Made by a program: the position numbers and the translations under genes. Positions 13,176-61,029 of a stretch of 64,000 nucleotides of DNA are shown here, piece by piece (within the stretch, counting starts at the first letter, position 1; the number at the start of each line of letters is the position of its first letter). The DNA lies in IMG/VR virus record IMGVR_UViG_3300005660_000003, positions 10,261 to 74,260 of that record; one strand, given 5' to 3'. Origin of the DNA: a virus. Lineage: Duplodnaviria > Heunggongvirae > Uroviricota > Caudoviricetes. The notes beneath the pieces are model-generated. The model was not told where the DNA came from and did not search any database. It saw only the letters and a list, made by a program, of their open reading frames with translations.

Positions 13176-14135
13176 TTAGAACTCCTCATCAGTCTGATTA
13201 CAGTCAAATACGAAAAGCCCTTCTTCTACCCACATGCGTTTTACACTTTTCCTATCATCGTAAACACCCACTACGTGGTACTTGGGTTTAATATATATTT
13301 CGTATAATTCTTTTTTAATAATGGTGTCTTTTCTATTATCTTTTAATTCCCGCATAAAGAATAAGTCATAAGAAATTCTATTAGTTTCTAACCAGTCAAG
13401 TGTTTCATCTTTGCAAATACCATCTCGCCCAGTCATTATAATAATTACATGACCGGCTGCTTTATGGGCCAGAAGAGCCTCTACAACTGGTTCATTAGAT
13501 AAGTCAGTGCCAACCTTATTCCAATTAAAGGGGCTGCGTCCGTTCATAAGGGCCAAAGTCCCGTCAATATCAAATATACAAGCAGCCTGTTTATTTTCAC
13601 ACTCAGCAACAGCTTCACGTTCAATGCTTGTTCTTTTGGGTATTACTTTATTCAGATCAAAAGTTGTCTTAACGGCAACAAGGCCCTTAGCCATTCTATT
13701 AATGATCTCGGGTCCCACCTTTTTATCTCGCACGGCATCCCTTTGGATGCAGGTTGCCGTAGGCACATCAAAGACTTGAAAAGTCACTTCATCAAAAGCT
13801 GTACAGAATTTAATGAGTTTTTTCAAGAACTCGACAGAGCAATTCGTCTGATCTATAACAAGATCCTTATCACCTTTATTGGCAATAGCCTGCTCTATCA
13901 TCTTTGTTACTATCTTTTCCCCACGAGGATCTAAGAATGGGGCGTTTCCTAGCATCGCTCGAAGATCATCCCGACATAATCGTAGAGTATTTGGATTCTT
14001 CTGAATCCAGCTTTTTGCCCACGTACTTTTCCCAGATCCGGGAACACCAACTGCTAGATATATCAAGTTTTTACTCCTGTTAATTCTGAGGTATCCTAGA
14101 TACCGAGGAACTTCTTCTTGTAGGTAATGGTCCAA
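13176..14135 (-). CDS. pnk: polynucleotide 5'-kinase/3'-phosphatase (T4 Pnk-like)
   Basis: N-terminal P-loop GVPGSGKST. C-terminal HAD phosphatase motif IFDIDGTLA. Confidence 0.8.
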   Translation of the reverse strand: MDHYLQEEVPRYLGYLRINRSKNLIYLAVGVPGSGKSTWAKSWIQKNPNTLRLCRDDLRAMLGNAPFLDPRGEKIVTKMIEQAIANKGDKDLVIDQTNCSVEFLKKLIKFCTAFDEVTFQVFDVPTATCIQRDAVRDKKVGPEIINRMAKGLVAVKTTFDLNKVIPKRTSIEREAVAECENKQAACIFDIDGTLALMNGRSPFNWNKVGTDLSNEPVVEALLAHKAAGHVIIIMTGRDGICKDETLDWLETNRISYDLFFMRELKDNRKDTIIKKELYEIYIKPKYHVVGVYDDRKSVKRMWVEEGLFVFDCNQTDEEF

Positions 14136-18985: not shown

Positions 18986-19096
18986 TGAGTCCGGCAGGAT
19001 TCGAACCTACAATCTACTAATCCCCGAGCACTTCTTGTTTACGGGAAAATTCGAAGCACAGTATAGTGTGCCGCGTTTGCATTTCGCCACAGACTC
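18986..19096 (-). ncRNA. tRNA-like element of atypical length (111 nt): good acceptor stem and T arm (gtagg-ttcgaat-cctgc) but oversized interior with extra hairpins
   Basis: Acceptor gagtctg/cggactc pairs over 7 bp. The interior contains hairpins gcaca-ctatac-tgtgc and cccg-N15-cggg. It cannot be folded by hand into a canonical cloverleaf. Confidence 0.3.
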
Positions 19097-24512: not shown

Positions 24513-27500
24513 CTAAATTGAACAGGCCCCACCAGAACACCCTGACTCAACAGTCATATCGTCGGTGCCGTCTGGGGTTACTAAGTAATACAGGTTTTTA
24601 ATACCCAATTTGTGTGAGTATATCATTTGTTTAATTATTTCAGATAGTGGAATTTTACCATTAGGATAATTATTATAATCCATAAAAAGATTTAGAGATA
24701 TACTCATACATATCCATCTTTGCATTGATGCATAGATTTTAATATGATGGAGCTGATCTACCATTTCAAATGCTGTTGTGTAATAATTCTTATTTTTAGG
24801 CCAAGACGGAGGAATAACCTTAATTGCCCCAGAGCCAGATTTTTTAGTAGTCAAAAAACTACGTATTGCATCTACCCCATTTGTAGAATTTTGCACAACC
24901 GAAGACGATTCTACCGGCATTTCTGCAAGTAATGTAGAATTCATAAGACCGAACTCTAATATTCTTCCACGTAATTTTTCCCAATCCATTTTAGGTTTAT
25001 CTAAAAACTTTAACTCTTTAGCTGTGTCAATTGGTAAAATTCCATCTGCCCATTTAGTTTTTTCAAACCAAGGCATTCTTTCACCCAACTCTTCTGCTAT
25101 TTTACAAGAGGCACTTATCATATAATAGGAAACTTTTTCAAAAATATCAGAGGTTTCCTGCAGTACTTCTTGAGATGTAAGCTTTATCTTTTTGCTAGCC
25201 ATATAGGCCGCATAATTAGTGATTCCTATCCCTAGCGACCTATAGTTCTTACAAAAGTTTTCTGCTGCCGGGAATCTATACTCTTGAGAATCTATGACTT
25301 CGTGCAATATTCTAGATATAATATAGCACACACTTTCATACTCTTCTTCTTTTGTTGTAAGAACATTAACAGCAGATAGCACGCACACACCAATTAATCC
25401 ATCAGGGTCCTGTAGGTGTTGTACTGGTTTAAGTGGGTGAACGACCTCTTGGCAATTTCCAGTTAAAATCCCATTAAATACAGCTTTATGTTCTAACGGC
25501 TCATTTAAACAATACGTATCATCTTTTCTACCGTCGTCCGTTATATTGGCTACCGTAATAAATTGAGATGCCTCTCTCTGTGGTAATCTTTGATTAAATT
25601 TTAATCTATTTGTTTTAAACCCCATCAATGAAAGCTTATATAAATCATTTGAATTTATTAATAGTCTTTTTGTTTCCTTGCATGAGAATAATTTATACCC
25701 GCCACGACCATCTGGTAAAAGTCTGTCTCCAGTTTCTACTCCATTTACAATTTTACTATTTATACCAAGGGTTTGAAGCATTAATTGTAATTCATAAATA
25801 AATTCTTGCTCTATAGAAGAAACCTGTATTGACTCATTTGTTCCATTTCTAGCTATAGTTCCATCTCCATCTAAATAACCAGCTAACCAAGCGAGTTTTA
25901 TTTTAACCGAAGAGTTAGTTGGTATTTTAAATTTCATAGGCATATCTTCATGCATTACAACATTTCTTCTACCAGAGGTGTCTTCTCCTCTATCTTTTTT
26001 AATATCTAGAAACTTAACAAGATTTTTCTTTTCTCCATATAGAGATATTCTTCTTGCCGATCCAGTCTCATGTGTTCCGTCAGCACAAAATAGTCCGTGG
26101 GTATATGGATATTTAAAATCTTCTGATCCATCTACAATAGGTAGATCAAATTTACATAGCTTGTCACCCACCTTAAGATCTTTAGTTTCTTTAATGGTTA
26201 ACTTACCCTTAACTTGATCTGCATATGACTCAACAATATACCACTTGTGGTATGGTGTGCATTCTAAATATTTACCATCTGAAAGTATAACTTTAACAAG
26301 TTTTTTATTAACCCCAGTTTTTACAACTTGCGTTTTTGACCATTGTTTACCATTCCAAACAGATACAATTTCATTTTCTAGTTCACGTATTGGAATGTGA
26401 CCATCTTTCGTTAGTAACAATGTCTCTGGAGCAACACACAAATTACTAGTAGTAACTCTTTCTTTAAAAGTACTGTGCTCATTCACATTATCTATGTGCA
26501 TAATATATATACGGCCAGTTTCAAGTCTTTCTTTTGCTATTTGGTTTAATAACTCAGATGCCTTTATTCTCTTTGAGAACTTTCCCCCTTTTTCTTCTGC
26601 TCTTGTGTAGATCTCATCAAATTCGGGTAGTCCAAAACTATTATAAACCTCGGGAAATTCATGATAACTCATTAAGGTAACGTCCTCACCCTTCATAAAT
26701 CTATTATAAAGAATTCCACTAATCTGTATACAATAATCCATCCATCTTACCTTATTTTCATCCGCCCCCTTATTATTCTTATAAGTGAGAATATCCTCTA
26801 TCTCTGGATGAAAGAATGGGAAATTTATTGTAGCAGAACCTTTTCTAATTCCTCCTTGTGAGGTTGAATTAACAGAACTTTCAAGTAGCTTTGCAAACGG
26901 GCGAATACCTGTATGTTTAACTTCCCCGTTTCTAATAGGGGCATTTCTAGCCCGGATAGATCCCATGTCTAAGCCAATTCCAGACCTATCTGCTACATAC
27001 TGCCCGACTATATGACTAGACGAAAAGATGGAGTTTAATGTATCATCAATTTTAATTAATATACAGCTTGAGTAATTCTTTAGTTTAGTTCTTACGCCAG
27101 CTAAAATGGGGGTAGGGAGATTTATTTTAAACAAAGAAAGATAATCATAAGTTTTCTTTATTAAGTCTAATCTATTCTCGTAACTCTTAAATAAAACCAT
27201 TGGAATTAATATAAAAGCGAATTGGGGAGTTTCATATATTTTCCCCGTTGATCTATCCTTAATTAGATACTTATCACACATTTGCTGAATACCAGCGTGG
27301 GTAAACATAAAGTCTCTATCATGTTTAACCATTTTATTTATTTTGTGTATTTCAGACTCTGAGTATTCCTTTAGTATGTCCTCATTGTAAATAGTCTTAT
27401 TTTTTCTAAGATGGTCATACAACCTAGGTGGGTCACTTTCTCCCCAGACTTGTTTTCTTAGGGCGTATGTCCGCAGCCTCCCGGCAACATATTGATAATT

Positions 27501-27719
27501 AGGATTATCTAATGTTATTAGGTCATACGCCGATCTTACTAATATCTCTTGTATATCAGAGGTTTTCATCTTATTTGATATTGAAATCTTAGCGTTCATG
27601 GCTACATCACTAGCTGATACGTCACTTAAATCGCTACATGCCCACTCAAGGACTTTGTTAATTTTTTCAGCATTAAATTCTTCTAATTTACCATTTCTCT
27701 TTTTTATTTGTAAAGTCAC
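24513..27719 (-). CDS. nrdA: ribonucleotide reductase class Ia alpha subunit containing an intein
   Basis: N-terminal ATP-cone, then SNL-C...N-CQEV. The extein is about 740 aa. The 328-aa insert has Hint blocks and LAGLIDADG motifs. Confidence 0.9.
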   Translation of the reverse strand: MTLQIKKRNGKLEEFNAEKINKVLEWACSDLSDVSASDVAMNAKISISNKMKTSDIQEILVRSAYDLITLDNPNYQYVAGRLRTYALRKQVWGESDPPRLYDHLRKNKTIYNEDILKEYSESEIHKINKMVKHDRDFMFTHAGIQQMCDKYLIKDRSTGKIYETPQFAFILIPMVLFKSYENRLDLIKKTYDYLSLFKINLPTPILAGVRTKLKNYSSCILIKIDDTLNSIFSSSHIVGQYVADRSGIGLDMGSIRARNAPIRNGEVKHTGIRPFAKLLESSVNSTSQGGIRKGSATINFPFFHPEIEDILTYKNNKGADENKVRWMDYCIQISGILYNRFMKGEDVTLMSYHEFPEVYNSFGLPEFDEIYTRAEEKGGKFSKRIKASELLNQIAKERLETGRIYIMHIDNVNEHSTFKERVTTSNLCVAPETLLLTKDGHIPIRELENEIVSVWNGKQWSKTQVVKTGVNKKLVKVILSDGKYLECTPYHKWYIVESYADQVKGKLTIKETKDLKVGDKLCKFDLPIVDGSEDFKYPYTHGLFCADGTHETGSARRISLYGEKKNLVKFLDIKKDRGEDTSGRRNVVMHEDMPMKFKIPTNSSVKIKLAWLAGYLDGDGTIARNGTNESIQVSSIEQEFIYELQLMLQTLGINSKIVNGVETGDRLLPDGRGGYKLFSCKETKRLLINSNDLYKLSLMGFKTNRLKFNQRLPQREASQFITVANITDDGRKDDTYCLNEPLEHKAVFNGILTGNCQEVVHPLKPVQHLQDPDGLIGVCVLSAVNVLTTKEEEYESVCYIISRILHEVIDSQEYRFPAAENFCKNYRSLGIGITNYAAYMASKKIKLTSQEVLQETSDIFEKVSYYMISASCKIAEELGERMPWFEKTKWADGILPIDTAKELKFLDKPKMDWEKLRGRILEFGLMNSTLLAEMPVESSSVVQNSTNGVDAIRSFLTTKKSGSGAIKVIPPSWPKNKNYYTTAFEMVDQLHHIKIYASMQRWICMSISLNLFMDYNNYPNGKIPLSEIIKQMIYSHKLGIKNLYYLVTPDGTDDMTVESGCSGGACSI
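25455..26438 (-). mobile_element. intein (residues 428-755 of NrdA) with LAGLIDADG homing-endonuclease domain, inserted at the thiyl-radical Cys (SNL|C)
   Basis: Starts CVAPETLLLTKDG (block A). TPYH (block B). HGLFCADGT and LAGYLDGDGT motifs. Ends ...TGN followed by +1 Cys. Confidence 0.8.
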
Positions 27720-35395: not shown

Positions 35396-35741
35396 CATAG
35401 CTGACTCTATAAAAAATGTTGCTAACACTGAGAATATAAGTAATATTGAGCTTGAAAAGGCTTACATTGCTTACATGGGTGCGTATCAATATGGAAAACT
35501 ACTTGACTTTGAAGGCTGTGAAGACTTCGCTGAATTATTTGACAAGATGCGGCTCGTTACCACTCGCCTACAATATGTTAGGAATGCTAAACTGAGTGAT
35601 GCGGCCTATGCAGAATTAAAAGAATTCGAAAAAGATGATAAGGGAAACCCCATTCCTTTTGATTCCGAGCATCAGGCTGCCTTTATGGAGAAGGCTTATC
35701 AAGTAGCGGAAGGTCTAAAGGCAGCAATTGAACGTGAATAA
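35313..35741 (+). CDS. secreted hypothetical protein (start uncertain, overlaps upstream ORF)
   Basis: Signal-peptide-like N-terminus. 142 aa. Confidence 0.35.
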   Translation: MLIRNFFIFTAICVSQILVIAQTSPQSNIADSIKNVANTENISNIELEKAYIAYMGAYQYGKLLDFEGCEDFAELFDKMRLVTTRLQYVRNAKLSDAAYAELKEFEKDDKGNPIPFDSEHQAAFMEKAYQVAEGLKAAIERE

Positions 35742-36798
35742 AACAAGGCATTATGTTTATAAAATAACAAATAAGATTAATGGTAAGTTTTATATTGGTA
35801 TTAAATCTTCTAGGCTTAACTTTTTAGATACTAATTATTATGGAAGTGGGAGGTTAATTAAAGCTTCTATTAAAAAACACGGTAAAGAAAATTTCTTAAG
35901 AGAAGTTCTTTTTGAATTTAGAACTCGTGAAGAAGTCTTAAGTAAAGAAAAAGAATTGGTTACCAAAGATTTAGTTAGTAGCCATAATTGTTACAATATA
36001 ACAGTTGGTGGTGGAGGATTTACCAATCTCAATTATCGTTCACTTCCTATAAAGAGTCTTGATTTTATGGGTAAAATAACTTACTATAAGTCTATGCTTG
36101 ATGCCTCACTTTTAGTTAAGGGATGTAATAGAACTGGCGTGCGTAATGCTATTATTGGTAAAGCAAATACCCATAATAATTTATATTGGTCTAAAGCTGA
36201 TAAAGACTTTTTAATCAAGAAAAATAGAAACTCTATTACCCCGTGCTTTTCACTAGATGAAAATAGTAGTAAAATTTACTATAATTCATTTTCAGAAGCC
36301 TCAAAGGCTACAGGGGTAGCTTGTAGTATAATCAGGAGATGTGTGGTTTCTGGTAAGGGCACTGGTGGCGGATTTAATTGGTATAAAACTACATCAAAAT
36401 TAGACTCATCTAGTTTCCGTGGAAAAAATTATTTAACTAGAAAACCTTGTATTTCTATAGATAAGACTGGTGCAAAGAAATATTATTCTTCTATTACTGA
36501 AGCTAGTAAGCAAACTGGTATTTGTAATACAAATATTTGTTTATGCTTAAAATTAAAAGCACGTTCTGCTGGTGGATTATCTTGGTATTATACCGATTCT
36601 GAAACAAATAAATTTAATGGAGTCGGTCCCCGCACCAAGTGTTACGAAAGTACAGATTCTAGAGGAAATAAAAAACGTTATAAATCCTTAAAAGAAGCTG
36701 CAAAAAGCAACAATTACAGTGTAGATTATATCTCTAAAGCTGCTAAAAATAATTTATTAGTTGCTGGATTAAAATGGGAGAGAATAAATGCTAAATAA
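35728..36798 (+). CDS. GIY-YIG homing endonuclease with C-terminal repeated helix-turn-helix (NUMOD/IENR-like) DNA-binding modules
   Basis: HYVYKITNKINGKFYIGIKS is GIY-(10)-YIG. Repeats YY(N/S)S(F/I)(S/T)EASK.TG. Overlaps the intein-containing gene start by 11 nt. Confidence 0.8.
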   Translation: MNVNKTRHYVYKITNKINGKFYIGIKSSRLNFLDTNYYGSGRLIKASIKKHGKENFLREVLFEFRTREEVLSKEKELVTKDLVSSHNCYNITVGGGGFTNLNYRSLPIKSLDFMGKITYYKSMLDASLLVKGCNRTGVRNAIIGKANTHNNLYWSKADKDFLIKKNRNSITPCFSLDENSSKIYYNSFSEASKATGVACSIIRRCVVSGKGTGGGFNWYKTTSKLDSSSFRGKNYLTRKPCISIDKTGAKKYYSSITEASKQTGICNTNICLCLKLKARSAGGLSWYYTDSETNKFNGVGPRTKCYESTDSRGNKKRYKSLKEAAKSNNYSVDYISKAAKNNLLVAGLKWERINAK

Positions 36799-38773
36799 TA
36801 CTGAGGGGTGGATTCACGACCCACGAGCCATAGAAGAGGTGATGTCTTCTCTTGAGCAACCATTCTTTTTTCAAGCGGCTGACGTTTTACAAGCTACTGG
36901 TAAGGGTAAATCAGCTTACCTTTATGAGAATTTTAAAAAGTTAAATATTCCATATCCCAAGCCACTCCAAGCTGGCGAAGGAGACTGTTTTAATCCGTCT
37001 TCATTAGTTACTATGGCTGACGGCTCTAAGAAATCTATCATTGATATTAAGGTTGGTGATTTAGTAATTTCTGCAATTGGTAATATTAAAAAGGTTTTAT
37101 CGGTATTTAATAAACCGTTTACTGGTAAAATGATTAAAATAACTACTCAGAGTTACCATAAACCATTGATTTGCACACCTGACCATAAATTAGTTCAATG
37201 TGTTAGTAAAAATACCACTAGATGGAATCGAGCGGATCTATTAGATCTTAAAGATTATATTCTAGTTTCAAAAATGCCTAACATAAATAATGAAAAAATA
37301 TACGATTTATCACAAATTTGTCCGAAGTCTGAGAACGTAGGTACTGATCAAATTAAAGCAATTAGATCTAATAAATTAGCTAACAGATTTATTAAGAATT
37401 CAGAAAAATTATTTTGGTTATTCGGTATGTATTTAGCTGAGGGAAGTTGTGACTTAGGTGGTGACAAATTACCAAAAAGAATTACATTTAACCTATCTAA
37501 TGATGAAATTTTAATAGCTGAAAAAATTAAACAATACATTAAAGATGTTTTTAATCTTGATGCTATTATTTGTAGTGTCCCATCGAAACCAAGTGTTTTG
37601 TACGTAAGAATTGGTAGTTATTTATTTGCTAATTTTGTTAAACATTTTTGTACCGGAAACGTTTATTCTAAATCATTTAGTGATGACTTTAAAATAGAAT
37701 CATTTTCTAATAAGTTAGCATTGCTTGAGGGATGGATGGATGGTGATGGATGGGAAGATAGAAAAGGCGTAACCGTAAGTGAAAATTTAGCTTATAATTT
37801 TTTTGATATAGCTAATTCTTTGGGCATGAATGTTAGAATTGATCATCGTAAAGCATACAAACAAAGTAAAAAAAGTTATTCGGTCGATATTAATTGTAGT
37901 GTTAAAACTTATGAAAAAGCTAAAGTTTTTACGAAAACTAGACTAAGTTATAATTTTATCACTAAGGTAGGTAAAGCTGCTAAAATAAAAAATGTAGAAT
38001 ATATTGAGCCAGAAACTGACAAGGTTTATTGTATTGAGGTAGAGGGTGATAACTCATTTATCTGTGACGGTTATGGTGTTCATAACTGCGTCTCTCACGC
38101 CACATCTTTGGCACTCGACACTTTATCTGTTACTGAAATTGTAAATGGCGATAGAGAAGTTTGGGTTGCAAGATCCGCTAGCGAATACGTTTATCATGTT
38201 TCTAGGATGGTAATCGGTAAAGGTAGATTTGGCTCCGGCGGAGGGTCCGTGAATGCTTATGCCGCTAAGGGTCTTCAGGAATATGGTAGTTTACGACGAA
38301 CCCAATATAACTCTGTAGATTTAACTAAATACTCTGAGAAAAGAGCGTATTCTTGGGGTCGTGGTTCTATTCCTAAAGATCTTTATGACATAGCTAAGGC
38401 CCAGAATATTGGTAAATTTGCAGCTATTAAAAATTTTAGTGATGCGTGCGACAGTCTTTATAATGGATATCCAATTGTTGTTGCGTCAAGCCAAGGGTTT
38501 TCTTCTACGAGAGATAAGGATGGTTTTTGTAGACCTCAGGGTAGCTGGATGCATTCCATGAGTGTACTTGGATATAAAGACGGTAGTCGTCCCGGTGTTG
38601 CAATTTGTAATTCTTGGCCCAGCTTTTTACCCGGAGAAAATGAGTTTGGGTTACCACCATCGTGTTTCTTCTGCGATGCTTCTGTCTTTGATAATATGTG
38701 TAAAATGGGTGACACTTTTTCATTAGCCGGATTTAACGGTTTTAAACCACGTGCCGACGCTCGTGTAATTTAA
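36788..38773 (+). CDS. papain-like (C1 family) cysteine peptidase interrupted by an intein
   Basis: The 294-aa extein has Q-x5-C (QAGEGD|C), ...HSMSVLGYKDGS... and NSWP...GENEFG, matching papain Q19/C25/H159/N175 plus NSWG...GENGY. Confidence 0.7.
   Translation: MLNNTEGWIHDPRAIEEVMSSLEQPFFFQAADVLQATGKGKSAYLYENFKKLNIPYPKPLQAGEGDCFNPSSLVTMADGSKKSIIDIKVGDLVISAIGNIKKVLSVFNKPFTGKMIKITTQSYHKPLICTPDHKLVQCVSKNTTRWNRADLLDLKDYILVSKMPNINNEKIYDLSQICPKSENVGTDQIKAIRSNKLANRFIKNSEKLFWLFGMYLAEGSCDLGGDKLPKRITFNLSNDEILIAEKIKQYIKDVFNLDAIICSVPSKPSVLYVRIGSYLFANFVKHFCTGNVYSKSFSDDFKIESFSNKLALLEGWMDGDGWEDRKGVTVSENLAYNFFDIANSLGMNVRIDHRKAYKQSKKSYSVDINCSVKTYEKAKVFTKTRLSYNFITKVGKAAKIKNVEYIEPETDKVYCIEVEGDNSFICDGYGVHNCVSHATSLALDTLSVTEIVNGDREVWVARSASEYVYHVSRMVIGKGRFGSGGGSVNAYAAKGLQEYGSLRRTQYNSVDLTKYSEKRAYSWGRGSIPKDLYDIAKAQNIGKFAAIKNFSDACDSLYNGYPIVVASSQGFSSTRDKDGFCRPQGSWMHSMSVLGYKDGSRPGVAICNSWPSFLPGENEFGLPPSCFFCDASVFDNMCKMGDTFSLAGFNGFKPRADARVI
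36986..38086 (+). mobile_element. intein (367 aa) with LAGLIDADG endonuclease domain, inserted immediately before the catalytic Cys of the peptidase
   Basis: CFNPSSLVTMADG (block A). CTPDH (block B). LFGMYLAEGS and LLEGWMDGDGW. Ends GVHN|C. Confidence 0.8.
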
Positions 38774-53347: not shown

Positions 53348-54366
53348 GAGAGTAATTCCTTAAAAATGCGTGCTGTATTTTCCCAAGAGAACATCTTTGA
53401 AATTTGTATTCCTGTAATATTAACCTTATAGCCATTCTTATAGGAGGCTCTAAGGGCTTCAACAAGGTGATTTATGTCGAAGACGCCCCAATTTCCTTGT
53501 CCGAAAAACCACTTGTCATCAAATGCAGGTGTAAGACTAGTAACAGGAATAAGCGTCGAGTTATGTCCATTACAAAATTCTGTGTGCCCAGCATAGTCAG
53601 TAACAATTACTTCCTTGCCACACGCCATCATTTCTAAGGTTTCTAATCCCCACCCCTCAGCTTTAGAAGGGAAAACGCCGCAACTAACAGTGTTCATTAT
53701 TCGGGCTAAATCTTGCTGGGTTTTAAATGGGCCAACAAACTTTATCTTTTTAGCCTTACCCATTGGGGTATTCATGTATTTGTATCTAATACGGCCCATG
53801 AATTCTGTATCATGGAAAATGTTATTCATAGACATCCATAGCTCAACATTGTCCGTAGGTTTAAACGCAAGATTAAAAGCTTCTACTATTTCATCCTGAG
53901 ATTTTCTTATTTCCCACTTACCAGCAGAAAAGAAGATGTGTACATTTGGTGTGTGTTCTACCTCGTGAAATATATCGCGATCAACACCAAGTGGAACCAC
54001 TTTAACAGGAGTAGTAATACCGTTGTTTTTTACAACCCCTTTTGCCCACTCAGTACACACCCATATCTCATCAACACTAGATAGGTGGGCTTTTTCAATA
54101 TTGTTAAACGTATCTAATTCAAAAATGGTATAACCTATACGTTTATTTTTGCCCACCATCATAAGGTCAAACTGATGGAATAATCTAACTGTTGGTAAAG
54201 ATAGATCGTAAGGTTTGCTTCCTATGAATTTGTTAGTAATAGATTGCGGCAATCCGAAGGATGGTTGCCCTATTGGTATAATATTACAATCTAAATGTTT
54301 TGCAATATTTAGGGCAACCAATCCATATGAAGTTATATTACTTATAGGAGCGTTAAAATTAAACAA
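53344..54366 (-). CDS. glycosyltransferase family 1 (GT-B)
   Basis: EGWGLETLEMMACGKEVIVTD matches the GT1/GT4 E-x7-E motif. Confidence 0.7.
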   Translation of the reverse strand: MFNFNAPISNITSYGLVALNIAKHLDCNIIPIGQPSFGLPQSITNKFIGSKPYDLSLPTVRLFHQFDLMMVGKNKRIGYTIFELDTFNNIEKAHLSSVDEIWVCTEWAKGVVKNNGITTPVKVVPLGVDRDIFHEVEHTPNVHIFFSAGKWEIRKSQDEIVEAFNLAFKPTDNVELWMSMNNIFHDTEFMGRIRYKYMNTPMGKAKKIKFVGPFKTQQDLARIMNTVSCGVFPSKAEGWGLETLEMMACGKEVIVTDYAGHTEFCNGHNSTLIPVTSLTPAFDDKWFFGQGNWGVFDINHLVEALRASYKNGYKVNITGIQISKMFSWENTARIFKELLS

Positions 54367-54754
54367 GGTCTAAACTTGCTAGACGACTTTGCAGGTCGTT
54401 AATTTTTCTTGCTCTAGCTGGCAACATAGCATTAATAACCTCTCTTATTTTTATTGCCTCTGGAGATTTACCGCCTTCTTGTGACCAAATTTCTTTTGTT
54501 CTAGCATCGGTTGTGCTAAATTTTTGTTTGGTAAGGTGATTCCTTAATGGATGAAGTACGTCGTTTCTAAATTTTTGTGACGCAACAAGATCCTTCTTTT
54601 CATCTTCATCGGTGTATCCTAAATACTTCCTGCAGTCTAATAGAGTACCCGCTGAACTCTTTGCCACTTCTCTTACAAACTTAATCTTTCGAAGATCTGC
54701 GTCTGTAACAGATACACAAACAGTTTCAAAAATTTCTTTCAATTTGTCATTCAT
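54359..54754 (-). CDS. hypothetical protein
   Basis: 131-aa ORF. Confidence 0.4.
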   Translation of the reverse strand: MNDKLKEIFETVCVSVTDADLRKIKFVREVAKSSAGTLLDCRKYLGYTDEDEKKDLVASQKFRNDVLHPLRNHLTKQKFSTTDARTKEIWSQEGGKSPEAIKIREVINAMLPARARKINDLQSRLASLDLV

Positions 54755-55355
54755 CTTTTAATTTTCCTTTATAAACAAAAGAGTTTTTATTGTATGACCA
54801 GACACAATTTTCTGGATCATATAAATAATCTGCTTCAAGATAATACCCATTTTTATCTACTATTGGGCAACAACAACCGTTTTCTAATTTGTAGTTTGGG
54901 GTCATTTTTTTACACAACACACAAGGCTTAAGATCAGTTTCTTCATCTTCTGGGTGCCAATATCCACTATCACTATACTCAGATATTACACTATGCAGTA
55001 TTTGGGGAAAGATGGGAAGTGTTTTACTGTTGTGTAATGTACTGTATAAACCCCCTGTGCAAAATTTATTGTAGCACTCACCACTAAATCTAACTGAACA
55101 ACCAATATCAACATTGGGGTGGTGATAATTAAAGTAAAGACGTAACTCGTGTGAAGGTTCTACTAACATTCTTGGTTTTTCAAAACTGAAAAAACGATCA
55201 CAACTTGACTCACCATCTTCATCTTCATCTTTTGTGGCTACACAGGTTATTGGTTTAAATTCATATAGAGTGTAATTATTATTACTCTGCTTAATCTTCC
55301 TAGGTTTTTTTAACAATACATCCAACATAAAATTCCCCAAAAGGTATATTAACAC
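54747..55355 (-). CDS. Cys-rich hypothetical protein immediately downstream of the E1-like gene
   Basis: 202 aa with multiple Cys clusters (CVLCKK...GCCCP). Confidence 0.4.
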   Translation of the reverse strand: MLIYLLGNFMLDVLLKKPRKIKQSNNNYTLYEFKPITCVATKDEDEDGESSCDRFFSFEKPRMLVEPSHELRLYFNYHHPNVDIGCSVRFSGECYNKFCTGGLYSTLHNSKTLPIFPQILHSVISEYSDSGYWHPEDEETDLKPCVLCKKMTPNYKLENGCCCPIVDKNGYYLEADYLYDPENCVWSYNKNSFVYKGKLKDE

Positions 55356-55441
55356 CGTAGTAATTTTGTAATATATGTGTGTCCCTTGCAGTACAAGTCT
55401 TTAAGAAATCTAGTAGATCTTTGTCCGCACACACATTTATA

Positions 55442-56164
55442 TTACTTCTGTTCGTTGTTATTGTTACAGTTACCAAAGTACTCATCTGGGTTCTCCGGAG
55501 ATAAAACAGAATTAATAGAACAAAAACTCAACATCCTGTGAACGGGCCAACCTTTTCCACCCATCAAATTGGCGAATTGATTAACGCTGGTCCCAGCTGC
55601 AATGTTGGCTATATAGTTACTCATTGGTTGAACGCACCCAAAACTTGCTGATTCACTTGATGGGAAAATGGTTTTGAGATACCAATCATTAGTAGTCTCC
55701 ATGTCTTTTACAGTAAGAATTTGAGCAACAGAAGCCCCGATTCTAACATCAAAGAAATATTTGCACTTATCCCTGTAGTAGTTATACAGGAGTTTCCTTA
55801 TATCAATGTTGTCTACGGTACTCCATACTGCGTCATAGGTGGTGTTTTTCCCCACTATTCTAGGGGCCCATTTATTAGGGTAAGCACTTACTTTAATGGC
55901 TTCGCCCATTTGGGAAACAATTTCTTCAGCTAGAACTTCTACCTTTGTCTTGCCACAATCACCCTGTGACCAATTCTGAGGAATTATATTGTGCGCTTCT
56001 ACAATGTCATTATCAACTAAATCAATAGACTTGACTCCAAGTCTAGCTACACAACTCGCTACGTTTCTACCTATAGCCCCACATCCGACAATTAAGACCC
56101 GTACTTCTTCTAGGTTTTTAGCAGGGCAGAAGTACTCTTGGCGAGAATAGAAAGCCGCGCTCAT
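55442..56164 (-). CDS. E1-like (ThiF/MoeB/UBA superfamily) adenylating enzyme
   Basis: Rossmann motif VLIVGCGAIGRNVASCVARLGVKSIDLVDNDIVE. 4-nt overlap with the JAB gene. Confidence 0.7.
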   Translation of the reverse strand: MSAAFYSRQEYFCPAKNLEEVRVLIVGCGAIGRNVASCVARLGVKSIDLVDNDIVEAHNIIPQNWSQGDCGKTKVEVLAEEIVSQMGEAIKVSAYPNKWAPRIVGKNTTYDAVWSTVDNIDIRKLLYNYYRDKCKYFFDVRIGASVAQILTVKDMETTNDWYLKTIFPSSESASFGCVQPMSNYIANIAAGTSVNQFANLMGGKGWPVHRMLSFCSINSVLSPENPDEYFGNCNNNNEQK

Positions 56165-57285
56165 TTGAAATCTCCTGTATTAATTTTACTTGCTGTATCT
56201 TTAAATTGTGGATACTTTAATCCCGCTGTATTAATGGCTTTTACTCTGTCAAGTTTATTATTACTTTTATAGGCTATCTGGAAATCTTTTTCTAACAAAT
56301 CCCCGTGTATAGCTCCGAGAATAACAGATATTCCATCCATTGGATTATAAGGGTTGTCAAACTCAAATATTCTTTCCATGCTCTGCAAGGATGTAATATC
56401 CTCTATGTCTGCGAATGCAGCTTTCATTCTTTGTAGCTCGTTGTCAGTCATCACCCTAAATGATTCTCGGTGCTCTCCTAACTCGAGTAGCATTTCTGGG
56501 ATTATTTCCGGGGACGCACTTTTTTTAAAACTATTTTTAGCGGGTTGGTAATGACTATGGTTTCCACCATATCCTTGATACCCGCTTCTTATTACTGTGT
56601 AAGTATCTGGGCTAACTAATTTGTCATATTCAGTAATCAGTTCGTTAAATTCTGGGAAAATTTCAATTAGTGAAACATGTGGGAGGAGTGACTTCTTAGC
56701 TTTTTCCATACCCAATTTATCTACAGCCCTTTCCCCAAAAATATTTTTTAAACCTGTTAAAATTTTAGCATCGTATCCTTCATCTTTAATAATTTCAACA
56801 GGTATCTCTTTTTCTACTTCATACGGATGATCTAGCCCGTTTACTGATGTGCTAAGATTACCTCTAACTCTCAGTTTACAGGTAATTTGTCCTGTCTTTG
56901 ACAGGATCATCATTACCATAAAATTTTTCATAGCGTTATCTTGGTCGTTCCAAGTGCTCATATCTTTACCAGAGGGATTAGCTGAACTATCTCCAGTCAT
57001 TGGGTGAGTATGACACCAAACTCTTTCACAGTTAATAGGTGGTATTCCCGCCATAGCGTTAGTTTCTATATATTCCGCCATATACTCGGGGCAACAATCG
57101 GAACTAGTTGAATTTACTTTTTGTTTTACGATCCTGAAATCATAAACATGAAGTGGGTTTTCTTTGTGGGTGATTCCAAACATTGTAATTTCTGAGTCTT
57201 TGTGGTCTCTCATAAATACAAACTTATCAAATGCATACGCATCAATTTTAAGTGTAAGTTCTTTTTTGGGTGTAGTTGTGTTCAT
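56161..57285 (-). CDS. JAB/JAMM (MPN+) metallopeptidase with C-terminal extension (deconjugating/processing enzyme)
   Basis: E...HTHPMTGDSSANPSGKD fits E-x(n)-H-x-H-x(10)-S-x2-D. Confidence 0.65.
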   Translation of the reverse strand: MNTTTPKKELTLKIDAYAFDKFVFMRDHKDSEITMFGITHKENPLHVYDFRIVKQKVNSTSSDCCPEYMAEYIETNAMAGIPPINCERVWCHTHPMTGDSSANPSGKDMSTWNDQDNAMKNFMVMMILSKTGQITCKLRVRGNLSTSVNGLDHPYEVEKEIPVEIIKDEGYDAKILTGLKNIFGERAVDKLGMEKAKKSLLPHVSLIEIFPEFNELITEYDKLVSPDTYTVIRSGYQGYGGNHSHYQPAKNSFKKSASPEIIPEMLLELGEHRESFRVMTDNELQRMKAAFADIEDITSLQSMERIFEFDNPYNPMDGISVILGAIHGDLLEKDFQIAYKSNNKLDRVKAINTAGLKYPQFKDTASKINTGDFK

Positions 57286-58196
57286 ACTTTAATCTCTTCC
57301 TTTTCTTGACAAACTTCACAGATTGCCTTGTTGTTTATGGTAAAGTAATACGGGGTGGTTTTTTCACAAACTGAACACTTTTTAATGCAATTTAGGGAAT
57401 AAAATTTCCCATCAATTTCTTCAGAACAATCCTTGTGTATAATTGCTTTTGTTTTTTCACAACTAATTTGTTCTCCGTCAAATTGGTAGCAAACAGAGCA
57501 CTTTTGTCCTACCCAATTATCTATGTACGCCCCGCTCCAATTAAGTGAGTTAGCATTATACCTACATAGTAATCCACAGACATTGTACAAAATTGACATT
57601 ATATCAAATTTTTGGGTATCTGCTCCCGATAGACGCGGATTTAGATATCCTCCTAGGCACAGCCCTCCATTTGGTCCTATGTGTGGGTGAAAACAACTTT
57701 TACCCCCAATGTTTCGCGGGTTATTTTCTCCACTTGGAGTACTTACTGCAGATAGACCTACTGAACGTGGAGAACTACTAACGTAATCGTCGAAATATAA
57801 TCTTGTTTTAAATAGTCCTAGGTCTACTGTTAGGTTAGTATTTGTTTGGTGGTTTTTTTCTGATATTACGGCTCTAGATTCAAACATAATTGTTGATACA
57901 TACTCATCCATTTCTAGCATTGTAAAATCGTGCTTTTTAACTAATCCATCATAAAGGCTATCGAAGCCTTCTCTACTTACAGCCTTTAAGGGTTCGCGAT
58001 AGTATGTATCGCCATAGTTGGCCAATGTATTTACCGCAGAAGAAAGTTCTCGGATTGTTCTACTTCTAGCTTTTTCTAGTGTTTTGTAGCTTGTGTCTAT
58101 TACTGGAAGATGTTCATTCTCCCATTTTTTTCTTCTCGAACACCCAATAGTGTATTGTCCATAGAATTTTTCTTTAGTTAACATCACACGCTCCAC
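57282..58196 (-). CDS. E2-like (UBC-fold) conjugating enzyme with C-terminal Cys-rich zinc-ribbon domain
   Basis: CFHPHIGPNGGLCLGGYL matches the UBC active-site motif FHPNI...G.ICLDIL, with a candidate catalytic Cys. Confidence 0.65.
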   Translation of the reverse strand: MERVMLTKEKFYGQYTIGCSRRKKWENEHLPVIDTSYKTLEKARSRTIRELSSAVNTLANYGDTYYREPLKAVSREGFDSLYDGLVKKHDFTMLEMDEYVSTIMFESRAVISEKNHQTNTNLTVDLGLFKTRLYFDDYVSSSPRSVGLSAVSTPSGENNPRNIGGKSCFHPHIGPNGGLCLGGYLNPRLSGADTQKFDIMSILYNVCGLLCRYNANSLNWSGAYIDNWVGQKCSVCYQFDGEQISCEKTKAIIHKDCSEEIDGKFYSLNCIKKCSVCEKTTPYYFTINNKAICEVCQEKEEIKV

Positions 58197-59061
58197 ATAT
58201 TACTACATCAGATTTAATAATCCAATCCACTTTATCTTTTTTGCACACATAGCATTCTTTAACCATTGCTGGATTGTAAATAGTCCCATTTATTACCTTA
58301 CCACAGTTTGCGTGTAGGATCATGCCGGTTTTAGGGCAGGTAATCATGTTCTTCTTGGAGTATTCCTCGCATACGCAACATTTTCTACCAATAAAATTTT
58401 CCATTGAACTAGCAATGTATGACGAATTAAACACCGATAACTGTTTTATAATGTTATCAATTATATCATAAAAGAACTTGTTTGTATCAAATGCTTTTGT
58501 AAAAATGGCATAATGTATGAACTCTCCGTATATATCAAAATATGGATGTTTTATTTTTCCATCAGTTTTTAATTTAATTATTCTTGGATGTAAAATATTT
58601 TCTTTACTAGTAAAAGTAACATGAATTGGGAAATTTTCAAATTGTAGGGTCCAAAACTCACCTGTCTTTATATTTTTATTATGTAAATTTAAATCAACAC
58701 TAAAATATAAACTTTGGTTACCGGAATGTTTTATAAATTTTATGCTTGGGTACTTTTCTTCTAGTTCTTTTATTTGAGAATCTAGTGTGGCAGGGTTGAA
58801 TTCTTCAAAAGAATTTAAGTAATCCAAATCTATGTCTGAATATTTCGACATATTATCTCGTATCTCTGGATACTTTCTTTTTTCAATATATTCGTCAATT
58901 TTGTTTTTTTCTTTATGTAATCTGATTATCTTTGAAAGTAGGAGGTCGTATACATGTTGTAAGGCATGGTTTTCTTTAAGCGTATTTATTTGCTCAAGAA
59001 AAGCCTCTGTGTATACACTCTTATCTAGTGCGGGTTTTTTTGTTGGCATTGCTGTTACCAA
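58174..59061 (-). CDS. E2-like paralog lacking the catalytic Cys (UEV-like?), same C-terminal Cys-rich zinc-ribbon domain
   Basis: Same two-domain architecture as 57282..58196. The HP-containing loop ILHPRIIKLKTDGKIKHP has no Cys. Confidence 0.45.
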   Translation of the reverse strand: MVTAMPTKKPALDKSVYTEAFLEQINTLKENHALQHVYDLLLSKIIRLHKEKNKIDEYIEKRKYPEIRDNMSKYSDIDLDYLNSFEEFNPATLDSQIKELEEKYPSIKFIKHSGNQSLYFSVDLNLHNKNIKTGEFWTLQFENFPIHVTFTSKENILHPRIIKLKTDGKIKHPYFDIYGEFIHYAIFTKAFDTNKFFYDIIDNIIKQLSVFNSSYIASSMENFIGRKCCVCEEYSKKNMITCPKTGMILHANCGKVINGTIYNPAMVKECYVCKKDKVDWIIKSDVVICGACDVN

Positions 59062-59221
59062 GAGATTACTCCGTAAGAAAATTTTTAAATAATTAAAGTA
59101 GGTGGAGCGTTTCCACGAAGATGGTTATTGTTCCGAGTATAAAGTTTGCGCAAGTATTACAAACAAAGTAAAAGGGGTGGAATTAAATTCCACCCCTTTA
59201 TCCTTAAGCGGTCAGACTATT

Positions 59222-59437
59222 TTAGCCTGCATCGACCTTGCCCAAGCTCACAGTCAAAATATCGCCGTCACCAAGAGGCGTTTCTGTGTTTGCCTGCATT
59301 CCGTTCACGCGATATACAGATCCGCTTGGAGCCCCAACTCGTGAGCCAGCAGCCCCCGCAGTAGAGCCGTGAGACAGGGTTACTGATACCTGATTGCCGT
59401 CTGAAAAAGCCTTGATAACGTTTACTGTAATGTTCAA
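59222..59437 (-). CDS. ubiquitin-like beta-grasp protein (ThiS/MoaD-like), C-terminus ...GKVDAG
   Basis: 71 aa. PLGDGDILTVSLGKVDAG resembles the ThiS/MoaD C-terminal ...DGD.I....V.GG. First gene of the E2-E2-JAB-E1 chain. Confidence 0.6.
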   Translation of the reverse strand: MNITVNVIKAFSDGNQVSVTLSHGSTAGAAGSRVGAPSGSVYRVNGMQANTETPLGDGDILTVSLGKVDAG

Positions 59438-59528
59438 GTGATTACTCCAACTAAAAAACCAAAAAGATGTGGGTGGCCAACATTAACCACCCACTGAAAA
59501 CTAATCTCGGACTTTCGTCCTTCAAATA

Positions 59529-59942
59529 CTACTCAGCTTTTGGAGCTGGCACTGACCAAATCAGGTCGTCGTTTGTTGGAACAAGCAATCCCGCACACTG
59601 TGCGAACTGAATAGCAGACTGCTTAGCTCCAACCGCAGCAGCCAAGCAGAATATGTTCTGCGTTGACTGAGCGTGCGCAGCGGCCACATTGATTCTGTCA
59701 ATTTCTTTATGCACACTTGCCAACTCATCCTCAAGGTTCTTCTTGGCCCGAGCCAACGCTGTGGAACGGTTTTGAGCTGATGTAAGAACACCAACAGTAA
59801 ACCCTTCCAATTTTTCAAGAGCAGCAGCCTGCTTCTTTGCCAAAGCCTTACCAATTACGTCTGAACCAAACGTAGATGGGGCAATAACATCCGCAACAGT
59901 CAAAGTTGACAACGGATTCACAACACTCGTACTTTCACTCAT
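59529..59942 (-). CDS. Ala-rich hypothetical protein (start assigned to the internal Met with RBS; ORF-track start at 60011 is less likely)
   Basis: agggaag lies 8 nt upstream of the ATG at 59942. Coiled-coil-like Ala/Lys/Glu-rich sequence. GC-rich. Confidence 0.4.
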   Translation of the reverse strand: MSESTSVVNPLSTLTVADVIAPSTFGSDVIGKALAKKQAAALEKLEGFTVGVLTSAQNRSTALARAKKNLEDELASVHKEIDRINVAAAHAQSTQNIFCLAAAVGAKQSAIQFAQCAGLLVPTNDDLIWSVPAPKAE

Positions 59943-60010
59943 AAAACTTCCCTTTGCAAAGGAAACTATAAAATGGGAGCAACTACATATTACCCCCGGT
60001 AAACTACACA

Positions 60011-60606: not shown

Positions 60607-61029
60607 TTATGTTTGAAGAGACAATCTCTTCTTTATTTCACTAAAAGTAGAAGAGTTGCAGGATGCTCCGTTAAGAAAGATGGAGGTCAACTCTCCCTCT
60701 TTTTCCTGCTCCGGTGAACAATCATTAAGTAACACAAGGACTCCATTGTCTCTTTTGATTACTGAAAGTAATCCTTTTGCGGACTTCTTCATGCCATCGC
60801 CAGTTTTTGGATCTTTAAAGATGCTCTTGGCTACGCCAGAGATTTGGACCCAAGTAGCCTTGCAGGCAATAGAATATGTATCACGGGTAACATATTGGTA
60901 TGTGTAAGACCCAATACCAAACACTACATTAGTGGAAGCAAAACCCTTGTCGGCTAGTAATTTGCAAATTTGTTCACACCTATAGATGATTGGTGTGAAT
61001 AAATAAGCATTCAGGGATACCAGAAGCAT
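60607..61029 (-). pseudogene. nadV: C-terminal remnant (about 140 aa) of nicotinamide phosphoribosyltransferase NadV/NAMPT
   Basis: GIGS...QYVTRDTYSIACKATWVQISGVAKSIFKDPKTGDGMKKSAKGLLSV...TFSEIKKRL aligns by eye to the NAMPT C-terminus (GSGGG...LTRDLLNCSFK......VFKDP...KRSKKGRLSL...SFDEIRKN). The N-terminal ~350 aa are absent. Confidence 0.5.

What the first reader, a model, noticed from the sequence alone, without database searches (positions are those of the whole stretch)
57282..59061. Tandem E2-like paralogs: one with and one without the catalytic cysteine
Genes 58174..59061 and 57282..58196 share a two-domain architecture: an about 200-aa N-terminal domain followed by a C-terminal Cys-rich zinc-ribbon (CxxC...C..C...CxxC...CxxC). 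Only the downstream copy has the HP(H/N)...G.(L/I)C active-site loop. The upstream copy has ILHPRIIKLKTDGKIKHP with no Cys. This is reminiscent of catalytically inactive UEV partners that direct chain type or target choice.
Basis: partly seen in the sequence, partly recalled or inferred. Interest (0 to 1): 0.55.

Follow-up and report, generated by a model that had tools for sequence, protein, structure and literature searches.

The report
Phage ubiquitin-like cassette with pseudo-E2
A large bacteriophage carries its own ubiquitin-like tagging operon, in which the tag-transfer enzyme (E2, fused to a zinc finger) was duplicated and one copy lost its catalytic cysteine but has been kept as a working gene in many related phages.

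The parts
59529..59942 (-). Protein X: 137 aa, Ala-rich and helical, function unknown, with one invariant Lys (K107). It is always the gene before the Ubl, and in locus L010 it is fused to the Ubl.
   Evidence: Conserved in L008, L009, L011 and L013. Alignment. Ubl-X fusion in L010. GC is 48% in a 35% GC window.
59469..59494 (-). Terminator-like hairpin (11 bp stem plus T-run) directly after gene X.
   Evidence: A hairpin sits at the same position in L008 and L013.
59222..59437 (-). Candidate ubiquitin-like modifier (Ubl): 71 aa, ending ...GKVDAG.
   Evidence: The C-terminal Ala-Gly is invariant, with extensions of 1-2 residues (SV, SI, R) in 3 of 5 lineages. Weak ThiS/TGS matches (E 0.06-0.2). 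The same position in L012 holds a triple ThiS protein (Pfam 4.7e-13). The beta-grasp fold itself was not tested.
59171..59199 (-). Terminator-like hairpin (13 bp stem plus T-run) between the Ubl and the enzyme genes.
   Evidence: A 14-bp hairpin sits at the same position in L008.
58174..59061 (-). Pseudo-E2 (E2i): helical N-terminal extension, Cys-less UBC-fold core and zinc module.
58402..58746 (-). E2i UBC-like core (about aa 106-220). It keeps H172-P173, with Ile182/His183 (58513-58518) in place of the catalytic Cys.
58177..58401 (-). E2i zinc module (aa 221-295). It is the best-conserved part of the Cys-less subfamily: C228, C242, Y262, P264, C270, C273, W280, C289 and C292 are invariant.
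57282..58196 (-). Active E2 (E2a): helical N-terminal extension, UBC core with HPH...Cys180, and zinc module.
57657..57689 (-). E2a active-site loop, H170-P171-H172 to Cys180 (Cys codon 57657-57659). The His-to-Cys spacing of 10 matches UbcH5 H75-C85.
   Evidence: Cys180 is invariant in all 32 Cys-bearing members. In register with UbcH5 YHPNINSNGSICLD.
57285..57521 (-). E2a zinc module (aa 226-304): C233, C236, C246, H254, C257, C274, C277, C293, C296.
56161..57285 (-). JAMM/JAB metallopeptidase (374 aa) with a C-terminal helical domain. Motif H92-x-H94-x10-S105-x2-D108 lies at 56962-57012.
   Evidence: Motif invariant in 3 lineages. Weak PADLOC JAB match, E 0.016. The L012 counterpart has a weak Prok-JAB match, E 0.024. 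ATGA overlap with both neighbouring genes.
55442..56164 (-). Minimal ThiF-type E1 (240 aa) with GxGxxG and an invariant Cys177 (55634-55636).
   Evidence: Pfam ThiF 3.8e-26. PDB matches to MccB, Uba1 and Cap2. Invariant residues.
55300..55485 (-). p61: small conserved ORF overlapping the end of the E1 gene and the start of p202. Function unknown.
   Evidence: Called in all contigs. Homologues in L008, L009, L013 and L010.
54747..55355 (-). p202: conserved Cys-rich protein with NYHHPN...MCLG and a C-terminal CxxC...CxxC. Possibly a third, very divergent UBC-like protein (speculative).
   Evidence: hhalign against the E2 core gives only 9.8% probability.

Best explanation
The two genes are the E2 pair of a phage-encoded ubiquitin-like (Ubl) conjugation cassette: X, Ubl, pseudo-E2 (E2i), E2 (E2a), JAMM peptidase, ThiF-type E1.

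Inferred mechanism:
1. The JAMM peptidase trims the Ubl to its terminal Gly.
2. The E1 adenylates the Ubl and takes it onto Cys177.
3. The Ubl passes to Cys180 of E2a.
4. E2a transfers the Ubl to a target. Its fused PHD/RING-like zinc module stands in for a separate E3 or substrate adaptor.

E2i arose by one ancient tandem duplication of this E2-zinc-finger gene. It lost the nucleophile and most of the active-site loop, but kept the UBC fold and the zinc module. I propose that it works as a non-catalytic subunit made together with E2a. In this it would resemble a UEV such as Mms2, or the E2-fold-plus-RING ligase FANCL. Its role would be to bind the Ubl, the target or E2a, and so set target or linkage choice.

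What is shown: paralogy, predicted folds, motif presence and absence, operon conservation, monophyly of the Cys-less copies, and purifying selection. What is inferred: thioester chemistry, complex formation, and the biological target.

The cassette sits among phage counter-defence and takeover genes (NAMPT, Pnk, RNA and DNA ligases). Host-protein or rival-phage tagging is therefore a plausible purpose, but it is unproven.
For: Paralogy:
- BLASTP E=5e-14.

Fold:
- Models have pLDDT 95.5 (pTM 0.87) and pLDDT 89.0 (pTM 0.80).
- The core profile finds only E2s among the 60 PDB matches listed, best E 0.008. It aligns YHPhI..G.lClG to UbcH5 YHPNINSNGSICLD.
- Seven members have sub-threshold UQ_con matches.

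Catalytic residue:
- Cys180 is invariant in 32 Cys-bearing representatives and absent from all Cys-less ones.
- E2i has no Cys in residues 1-227.

Operon components:
- ThiF E1, Pfam 3.8e-26, with an invariant Cys177.
- Invariant JAMM motif.
- The Ubl ends in Gly, with variable 1-2 residue extensions.
- Gene order equals BilABCD Ubl-E2-DUB-E1 (PMC10557695, read).

Conservation:
- The pair occurs in 7 lineages, always Cys-less first and always overlapping.
- A single Cys-bearing copy occurs in 4 lineages.

History and selection:
- The NJ tree puts all Cys-less copies in one clade.
- dN/dS between L009 and L013 is 0.144 for E2i and 0.142 for E2a.

Subfunctionalisation hint:
- A Trp in the zinc module is invariant in the 20 aligned Cys-less copies.
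- Across the loci it is present in 6 of 7 upstream copies, 3 of 4 single copies and 0 of 7 paired active copies.

Stoichiometry hint:
- Terminator-like hairpins follow X and the Ubl, ahead of the enzyme genes, in both the window and L008.
Against: - Nothing here shows a physical E2i-E2a complex, and no multimer prediction was available.
- The Ubl's beta-grasp fold rests on position, size and terminal Gly only. Its profile finds nothing in the PDB.
- The third residue of the HPN motif is His or Tyr, not Asn.
- The Bub pathway shows that E2s once called inactive for lack of Cys can work through oxyesters (PMC11601596).
- E2i evolves fastest of all cassette genes: 24-26% identity between lineages where E1 keeps 73-79%. 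That also fits an arms-race decoy.
- About half of the E2i copies have lost three ligands of the first zinc site.
- The target is unknown.
Confidence: 0.55

Rival explanations
1. E2i is a decoy or inhibitor rather than a partner. On this view it is a pseudo-enzyme that the phage uses to soak up a host Ubl, E1 or E2 of a Bil/Bub/CBASS-type defence, or to restrain its own E2a, and it acts independently of E2a catalysis.
For: E2i is the fastest-evolving gene of the cassette (24-26% identity between lineages). Its first zinc site decays repeatedly. The surrounding genes are counter-defence-like: NAMPT, Pnk and ligases. Bil systems are anti-phage Ubl pathways (PMC11601596).
Against: E2i is always translationally coupled to E2a and never occurs alone in the 11 loci read. 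It derives from the phage's own E2, not from a host E2. Its dN/dS equals that of E2a.
Confidence: 0.13
2. The whole cassette is a Bil-like exclusion or defence system carried by the phage. It would tag structural proteins of competing phages, as BilABCD tags tail fibres. On this view E2i is merely an accessory specificity subunit.
For: The gene order is the same as BilABCD. [quoted passage not shown] Phages often carry defence systems.
Confidence: 0.12
3. E2i is catalytically active through a non-cysteine nucleophile, forming an oxyester as in Bub E2s. The operon would then have two working E2s.
For: There is precedent: Bub E1 and E2 lack Cys yet conjugate via oxyesters (PMC11601596).
Against: In 20 Cys-less members, nothing but His-Pro is conserved in the core. 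The position aligned to Cys180 varies (I/H, G, S, K, A, F, R, Y, M or a gap), and the loop is often deleted. The E1 keeps an invariant Cys.
Confidence: 0.05
4. The cassette is a sulfur-carrier (ThiS/MoaD-type) or peptide-modification system, not a protein-tagging system. The UBC-like proteins would then be scaffolds.
For: The E1 is a minimal ThiF/MoeB-size enzyme whose best PDB matches are MccB and ThiF-like proteins. The Ubl shows only faint ThiS similarity.
Against: An invariant HPH...Cys E2 active site under purifying selection has no role in sulfur transfer. No sulfurtransferase or cofactor genes lie nearby. The Ubl has processed-type C-terminal extensions.
Confidence: 0.07
5. E2i is a decaying duplicate with no function.
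For: It has lost the catalytic Cys, the loop and, in many copies, three zinc ligands.
Against: The ORF is intact in 7 lineages and 20 representatives at 50% clustering. The copies form one ancient clade. dN/dS is 0.14. The fold is predicted confidently. The second half of the zinc module has invariant residues.
Confidence: 0.03

Closest known systems
BilABCD (type I/II bacterial ISG15-like/ubiquitination operons: Ubl BilA, E2 BilB, JAB BilC, E1 BilD)
   Same: It has the same four activities in the same order, Ubl-E2-JAB-E1 (PMC10557695). No separate E3 gene is present. A JAB peptidase is expected to expose the Ubl's terminal Gly.
UEV-E2 pairs (Mms2 or Uev1a with Ubc13)
   Different: E2i is a paralogue of its neighbouring phage E2, so it arose independently of eukaryotic UEVs. 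It also carries a zinc module and a long N-terminal helix. Heterodimer formation and acceptor-Ubl binding are untested.
FANCL-type ligases (Cys-less E2-like/RWD folds followed by a PHD/RING finger)
   Different: There is no detectable sequence relationship. E2 binding by the E2i zinc finger is not shown. The active E2 here carries the same finger.
Archaeal/bacterial eukaryote-like operon: Ub, E1, E2, small RING finger protein (srfp), Rpn11 (Caldiarchaeum subterraneum; PMC5654768)
   Same: [quoted passage not shown]
   Different: Here the zinc module is fused to the E2 and looks PHD/C1-like, with ligand 4 missing. The modifier is not recognisably ubiquitin and ends in Ala-Gly rather than Gly-Gly. 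The host is a phage. A pseudo-E2 is present.
Bub / '6E' operons and the inactive RWD-like E2 folds of Iyer et al. 2006
   Different: Bub has no Cys-bearing E2 or E1 at all and works through oxyesters. Here a Cys-bearing E1 and E2 coexist with the Cys-less paralogue. Bub's DUF6527 protease is absent.

Membership tests
UBC/E2 superfamily (E2a, 57282-58196) | UBC alpha/beta fold | tested here: met
UBC/E2 superfamily (E2a) | HPN-type motif about 10 residues before an invariant catalytic Cys | tested here: met
   H170-P171-H172...C180 has the same spacing as UbcH5 H75...C85 and aligns in register. Cys is invariant in 32 members. The third residue is His or Tyr, not Asn.
UBC/E2 superfamily (E2a) | Match to Pfam UQ_con or Prok-E2_A-E at the curated threshold | tested here: not met
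   The window protein has no Pfam match. UQ_con is matched only below threshold in 7 of 47 members, best E 0.003. No Prok-E2 family is among the 25 most-matched families listed.
UBC/E2 superfamily (E2a) | Forms a thioester with the Ubl, loaded by the E1 | not testable with these tools
   This needs biochemistry.
UEV / pseudo-E2 (E2i, 58174-59061) | UBC fold lacking the catalytic Cys | tested here: met
UEV / pseudo-E2 (E2i) | Stable complex with a cognate active E2, and non-covalent Ub/Ubl binding | not testable with these tools
   Only indirect evidence exists: conserved gene overlap and co-occurrence in 7 of 7 lineages that have E2i.
UEV / pseudo-E2 (E2i) | Orthology to eukaryotic Mms2/Uev1/Tsg101 | tested here: not met
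   Its closest relative is the adjacent phage E2. The NJ tree shows a phage-internal duplication.
RING/PHD/C1 binuclear treble-clef zinc fingers (C-terminal module of both proteins) | Eight Cys/His ligands with cross-brace spacing | tested here: inconclusive
   Nine conserved ligands are present. The spacing C-x2-C-x9-C-x2-[T]-x4-H-x2-C-x16-C-x2-C fits a PHD finger, but ligand 4 is Thr and an extra CxxC follows.
RING/PHD/C1 binuclear treble-clef zinc fingers | Significant similarity to known members | tested here: met
RING/PHD/C1 binuclear treble-clef zinc fingers | E3 activity (binds E2~Ubl and stimulates discharge) | not testable with these tools
   This needs biochemistry.
BilABCD operon | Ubl-E2-JAB-E1 gene set and order | tested here: met
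   compared with PMC10557695. There is one extra E2 paralogue.
BilABCD operon | [quoted passage not shown] | tested here: not met
   The E1 is 240 aa with one ThiF domain (residues 16-202). Bil E1 architecture is taken from PMC11601596.
BilABCD operon | BilB-type E2 | tested here: not met
JAMM/JAB metallopeptidase (56161-57285) | E...HxH-x(7-10)-S-x2-D zinc-binding motif | tested here: met
   H92-T-H94-x10-S105-x2-D108 is invariant in 3 lineages. Family models match only weakly: PADLOC JAB E 0.016, no Pfam or PDB sequence match.
E1/ThiF/MoeB adenylating enzymes (55442-56164) | ThiF Rossmann domain with a GxGxxG motif and a conserved Cys for thioester formation | tested here: met
   Pfam ThiF 3.8e-26, above the cut-off. 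G27xG29xxG32, D118 and C177 are invariant in 8 homologues. That Cys177 is the catalytic residue is inferred.
Ubiquitin-like beta-grasp modifier (59222-59437) | Beta-grasp fold with a C-terminal Gly exposed by processing | tested here: inconclusive
   The terminal Ala-Gly is invariant and extensions vary. ThiS/TGS matches are only faint. The profile finds no PDB sequence match.

The most novel reading that the evidence does not exclude
A virus of bacteria carries a complete, eukaryote-like tagging cascade. It comprises a Ubl, a minimal E1, a UBC-type E2 fused to a PHD/RING-like finger, and a JAMM protease. Duplication of the E2-finger fusion would have turned one copy into a FANCL/UEV-like E3 or specificity subunit. 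That would make it a natural, datable example of an E3-like adaptor being born from an E2. The phage would use the system to tag host or rival-phage proteins during infection.
Probability: 0.25. Interest if true: 0.85.

Novelty: new variant of a known kind. Interest (0 to 1): 0.66.

Why it matters
Ubiquitin-like conjugation in bacteria (CBASS Cap2, Bil, Bub) is so far known as a host weapon against phages. A conserved cassette on the phage side would show that viruses of bacteria also use protein tagging, as eukaryotic viruses do.

The E2-zinc-finger fusion and its Cys-less paralogue give a compact system of about 5 kb in which three questions can be tested directly:
- How do pseudo-E2s (UEVs, FANCL-type folds) arise from active E2s?
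- Can a fused PHD/RING-like finger replace an E3?
- How does a 240-aa E1 serve a UBC-type E2?

Lineages with one copy and lineages with two copies both exist. This provides natural before-and-after states for studying subfunctionalisation.

Tried and rejected
Searches that found nothing:
- blastn of 54000-60000 and tblastn of E2a and the JAB protein against 50,697 GenBank phages gave no match.
- Word-indexed protein searches returned only self or a few close copies. Relatives appeared only with the exhaustive HMMER search.
- Pattern scans gave nothing in IMG/VR, nothing in GTDB genomes and two loci in JGI metagenomes.
- Foldseek against viral structures (BFVD) found no full-length analogue.
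- PDB sequence searches for the JAB protein, the Ubl and p202 found nothing useful.
- PHROGs and PADLOC gave nothing for either E2 or for X, p61, p131, p190 or p202.

Resources that were unavailable:
- The afdb50 fold library was not on the machine.
- Burroughs et al. 2011 on prokaryotic RING fingers is not held.
- Full-text searches found no paper on a phage-encoded E1/E2/Ubl cassette. That library is incomplete, so this is not proof of absence.

Analyses that gave no answer:
- Six near-identical contigs of the same phage carry almost no substitutions, so they were useless for selection analysis. I used L009 against L013 instead.
- The idea that p202 is a third UBC-like protein got only 9.8% hhalign probability, so I keep it as a lead only.

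Readings considered and rejected:
- A displaced catalytic Cys in E2i (none exists).
- A conserved Ser/Thr nucleophile in E2i (none).
- E2i as a dead pseudogene.
Full report
**Context.** The window has 35% GC. It encodes typical large-phage replication and takeover genes:
- ribonucleotide reductase with an intein, DNA ligase and AAA ATPases;
- polynucleotide kinase, homing endonucleases and endonuclease VII;
- tRNAs.

Identical copies of the region occur on metagenomic contigs of up to 118 kb. More distant relatives lie on contigs of 164-173 kb. One source labels a copy as a Chitinophagaceae MAG protein.

**The observation.** Both ORFs are present on the minus strand at the stated coordinates.
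- They are paralogues: BLASTP E=5e-14, 26% identity over 189 aa.
- The downstream copy (E2a) reads CFHPHIGPNGGLCLGGY.
- The upstream copy (E2i) reads KHPYFDIYGEFIHY at the aligned position, with Ile182/His183 in place of Cys.
- E2i has no cysteine in its first 227 residues.
- The genes overlap. E2a probably starts at ATG 58184, behind a GGAG that lies inside the end of E2i.

**Fold.** With an alignment of 47-50 family members, AlphaFold2 gives pLDDT 95.5 and pTM 0.87 for E2a, and pLDDT 89.0 and pTM 0.80 for E2i.
- UEVs (Mms2, Tsg101), FANCL, BubB and BilB appear lower in the lists.
- Independently of any model, a sequence profile of the core of the Cys-bearing members finds only E2 enzymes among the 60 PDB matches listed (best E 0.008). 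It aligns YHPhI..G.lClG with UbcH5 YHPNINSNGSICLD, with the same His-to-Cys spacing.
- Pfam UQ_con is matched below threshold by seven members, and no Prok-E2 family is among the 25 most-matched families listed.
- Each protein therefore has a helical N-terminal extension of about 90-105 aa, a UBC core, and a zinc module.

**The zinc module.** Nine ligand positions are conserved: C233, C236, C246, H254, C257, C274, C277, C293 and C296 in E2a numbering.
- Its profile matches a PHD finger (1wev, E 1.8e-5) and PKC C1 domains (3.5e-4). The last two CxxC pairs match the eS27 zinc ribbon.
- Pfam Prok-RING_1, C1_1 and zf-RING-like are matched below threshold.
- The spacing is PHD-like, but ligand 4 is Thr and an extra CxxC follows. 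I could not read the model coordinates, so the zinc topology is unresolved.

**The operon.** On the minus strand the order is X (137 aa), Ubl (71 aa), E2i, E2a, JAMM peptidase (374 aa), ThiF E1 (240 aa), p61, p202, p131 and a GT4 glycosyltransferase.
- The E1 is a clear ThiF domain (3.8e-26). It has invariant GxGxxG, D118 and Cys177.
- The peptidase has an invariant HxH-x10-S-x2-D motif.
- The Ubl ends in an invariant Ala-Gly, followed in three of five lineages by one or two extra residues. This is the signature of a processed modifier.
- In a distant relative (L012), the same slot holds a triple ThiS protein. It sits next to a 714-aa protein that still reads FHPHVFDHGDICLG and carries the same finger.
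- The order Ubl-E2-JAB-E1 is that of BilABCD (PMC10557695).
- E2i/E2a, E2a/JAB and JAB/E1 overlap, which implies translational coupling.
- Strong terminator-like hairpins follow X and the Ubl in the window and in L008. This suggests that X and the Ubl are made in excess over the enzymes.
- In L010 the Ubl is fused to the N-terminus of X. This links X functionally to the Ubl, as a substrate, partner or pro-peptide.

**Family and history.** An exhaustive HMMER search found 52 representatives, almost all of them 250-350 aa.
- Of the 47 aligned, thirty-two have the catalytic Cys and fifteen lack it. The Cys-less set rises to 20 with extra loci and close copies.
- In eleven independent lineages read from contigs, seven have the tandem pair. 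It is always Cys-less first, Cys-bearing second, and overlapping.
- The other four lineages have a single Cys-bearing gene.
- A neighbour-joining tree puts all Cys-less copies in one clade, so the duplication was single and old.
- Between L009 and L013, dN/dS is 0.144 for E2i and 0.142 for E2a, against 0.024 for E1. E2i is therefore a maintained gene.
- Within the Cys-less subfamily, the only conserved positions in the core are His-Pro. The invariant residues all lie in the zinc module. No alternative nucleophile is conserved, which argues against a Bub-like oxyester mechanism (PMC11601596).
- A Trp in the zinc module is invariant in the 20 aligned Cys-less copies. Across the loci it is kept in six of seven upstream copies and three of four single-copy E2s, but in none of the seven paired active copies. 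This pattern suggests subfunctionalisation: E2a kept catalysis, and E2i kept an ancestral binding function of the finger.

**Most likely mechanism.** The JAMM peptidase matures the Ubl. The E1 adenylates it and carries it on Cys177. E2a receives it on Cys180 and transfers it to a target, with the fused finger standing in for an E3. E2i is a non-catalytic subunit of the same pathway, in the manner of a UEV or of FANCL (an E2-like fold plus a RING/PHD finger). The chemistry, the complex and the target are inferences.

**Rivals.**
- E2i is an arms-race decoy. It is the fastest-evolving cassette gene.
- The cassette is a Bil-like exclusion system carried by the phage.
- E2i is active through an oxyester.
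- The cassette is a sulfur-carrier system.
- E2i is a dead duplicate.

The last three are poorly supported.

**Comparison and novelty.** Cys-less E2-like folds and zinc-finger proteins in prokaryotic Ubl operons were noted in 2006 (PMC1779556). Bil, Bub, CBASS and the archaeal Ub-E1-E2-srfp-Rpn11 operon are characterised. New here are:
- the phage location;
- the UBC-type E2 fused to a PHD/RING-like finger;
- the minimal E1;
- the conserved pseudo-E2 paralogue.

No homologue was found in GenBank phages (tblastn), or by pattern scans of IMG/VR and GTDB genomes. No curated family model is passed. I found no paper describing it, although that library is incomplete. I rate it a new variant of a known kind, of clear interest to the bacterial-ubiquitination and phage-host conflict fields.

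Noticed in passing
window 54747-55355 (-): p202 always lies just after the E1 gene. It has a conserved NYHHPN...(13 residues)...MCLG.LY stretch at the position where a canonical E2 has HPN...Cys, and it ends with CxxC...CCxxC. It may be a third, very divergent UBC-like protein with a small zinc ribbon. hhalign against the E2 core aligns the MCLG and the following helix in register, but with only 9.8% probability.
   Followed up: partly
window 59222-59942 (-), hairpins 59469-59494 and 59171-59199: Genes X and Ubl are 48% and 51% GC in a 35% GC genome, whereas E2i is 30%. Each is followed by a strong terminator-like hairpin. The hairpins recur at the same positions, with different sequences, in L008. 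The Ubl start and the E2i start share the context GGAGTAATC(A/T)C-TTG.
   Followed up: partly
L010 308-922: In one single-copy lineage, the Ubl and protein X are fused into a single 204-aa protein, with the Ubl at the N-terminus. Elsewhere X is a separate gene upstream of the Ubl. X has a single invariant lysine (K107 in the 137-aa numbering).
   Followed up: partly
Zinc modules, window 57285-57521 and 58177-58401; alignment A10: About half of the Cys-less copies have lost C236, H254 and C257 of the first site. Even so, C233 and C246 stay invariant, along with the four Cys of the last two CxxC pairs. Six invariant Cys do not fit two ordinary four-ligand sites, so the zinc topology is unexplained.
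   Followed up: partly
L012 1-16145 (164-kb contig): This is a distant, enlarged version of the system. It has a triple-ThiS poly-Ubl (226 aa), a 714-aa protein containing FHPHVFDHGDICLG plus the same zinc finger, an 897-aa protein with a JAB-like region, and two ThiF genes. These lie among SMC-like and helicase genes.
   Followed up: partly
window 60607-61029 (-): Only the C-terminal 120 residues or so of a nicotinamide phosphoribosyltransferase (NAMPT) remain here. Related phages have 531-539 aa (L008, L011), and a near-identical contig (L001) has 306 aa. The gene therefore appears truncated or decaying in this strain.
   Followed up: partly
window 24513-27719 (-) and 36788-38773 (+): The ribonucleotide reductase large subunit carries an intein with a LAGLIDADG endonuclease. 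A second intein (Hint plus LAGLIDADG) sits in a helicase-like protein. A free-standing homing endonuclease lies at 35728-36798.
   Followed up: no
window 18986-19096 (-): Rfam reports a third tRNA match (39 bits, 111 nt) that ARAGORN did not call. Its length suggests an intron or insertion.
   Followed up: no
window 55300-55485 (-): p61 is a small ORF that overlaps the 3' end of the E1 gene by 44 nt and the start of p202. It is nevertheless conserved at protein level in L008, L009, L013 and, weakly, L010. It is therefore probably a real overlapping gene.
   Followed up: partly
window 13176-14135, 8950-10035; neighbours in L001/L011: A T4-type polynucleotide kinase, a DNA ligase, an RNA ligase (in the flanking contigs) and NAMPT surround the cassette. 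These are functions known from phage tRNA-repair and NAD-salvage counter-defence. That is the only contextual hint to the cassette's purpose.
   Followed up: no
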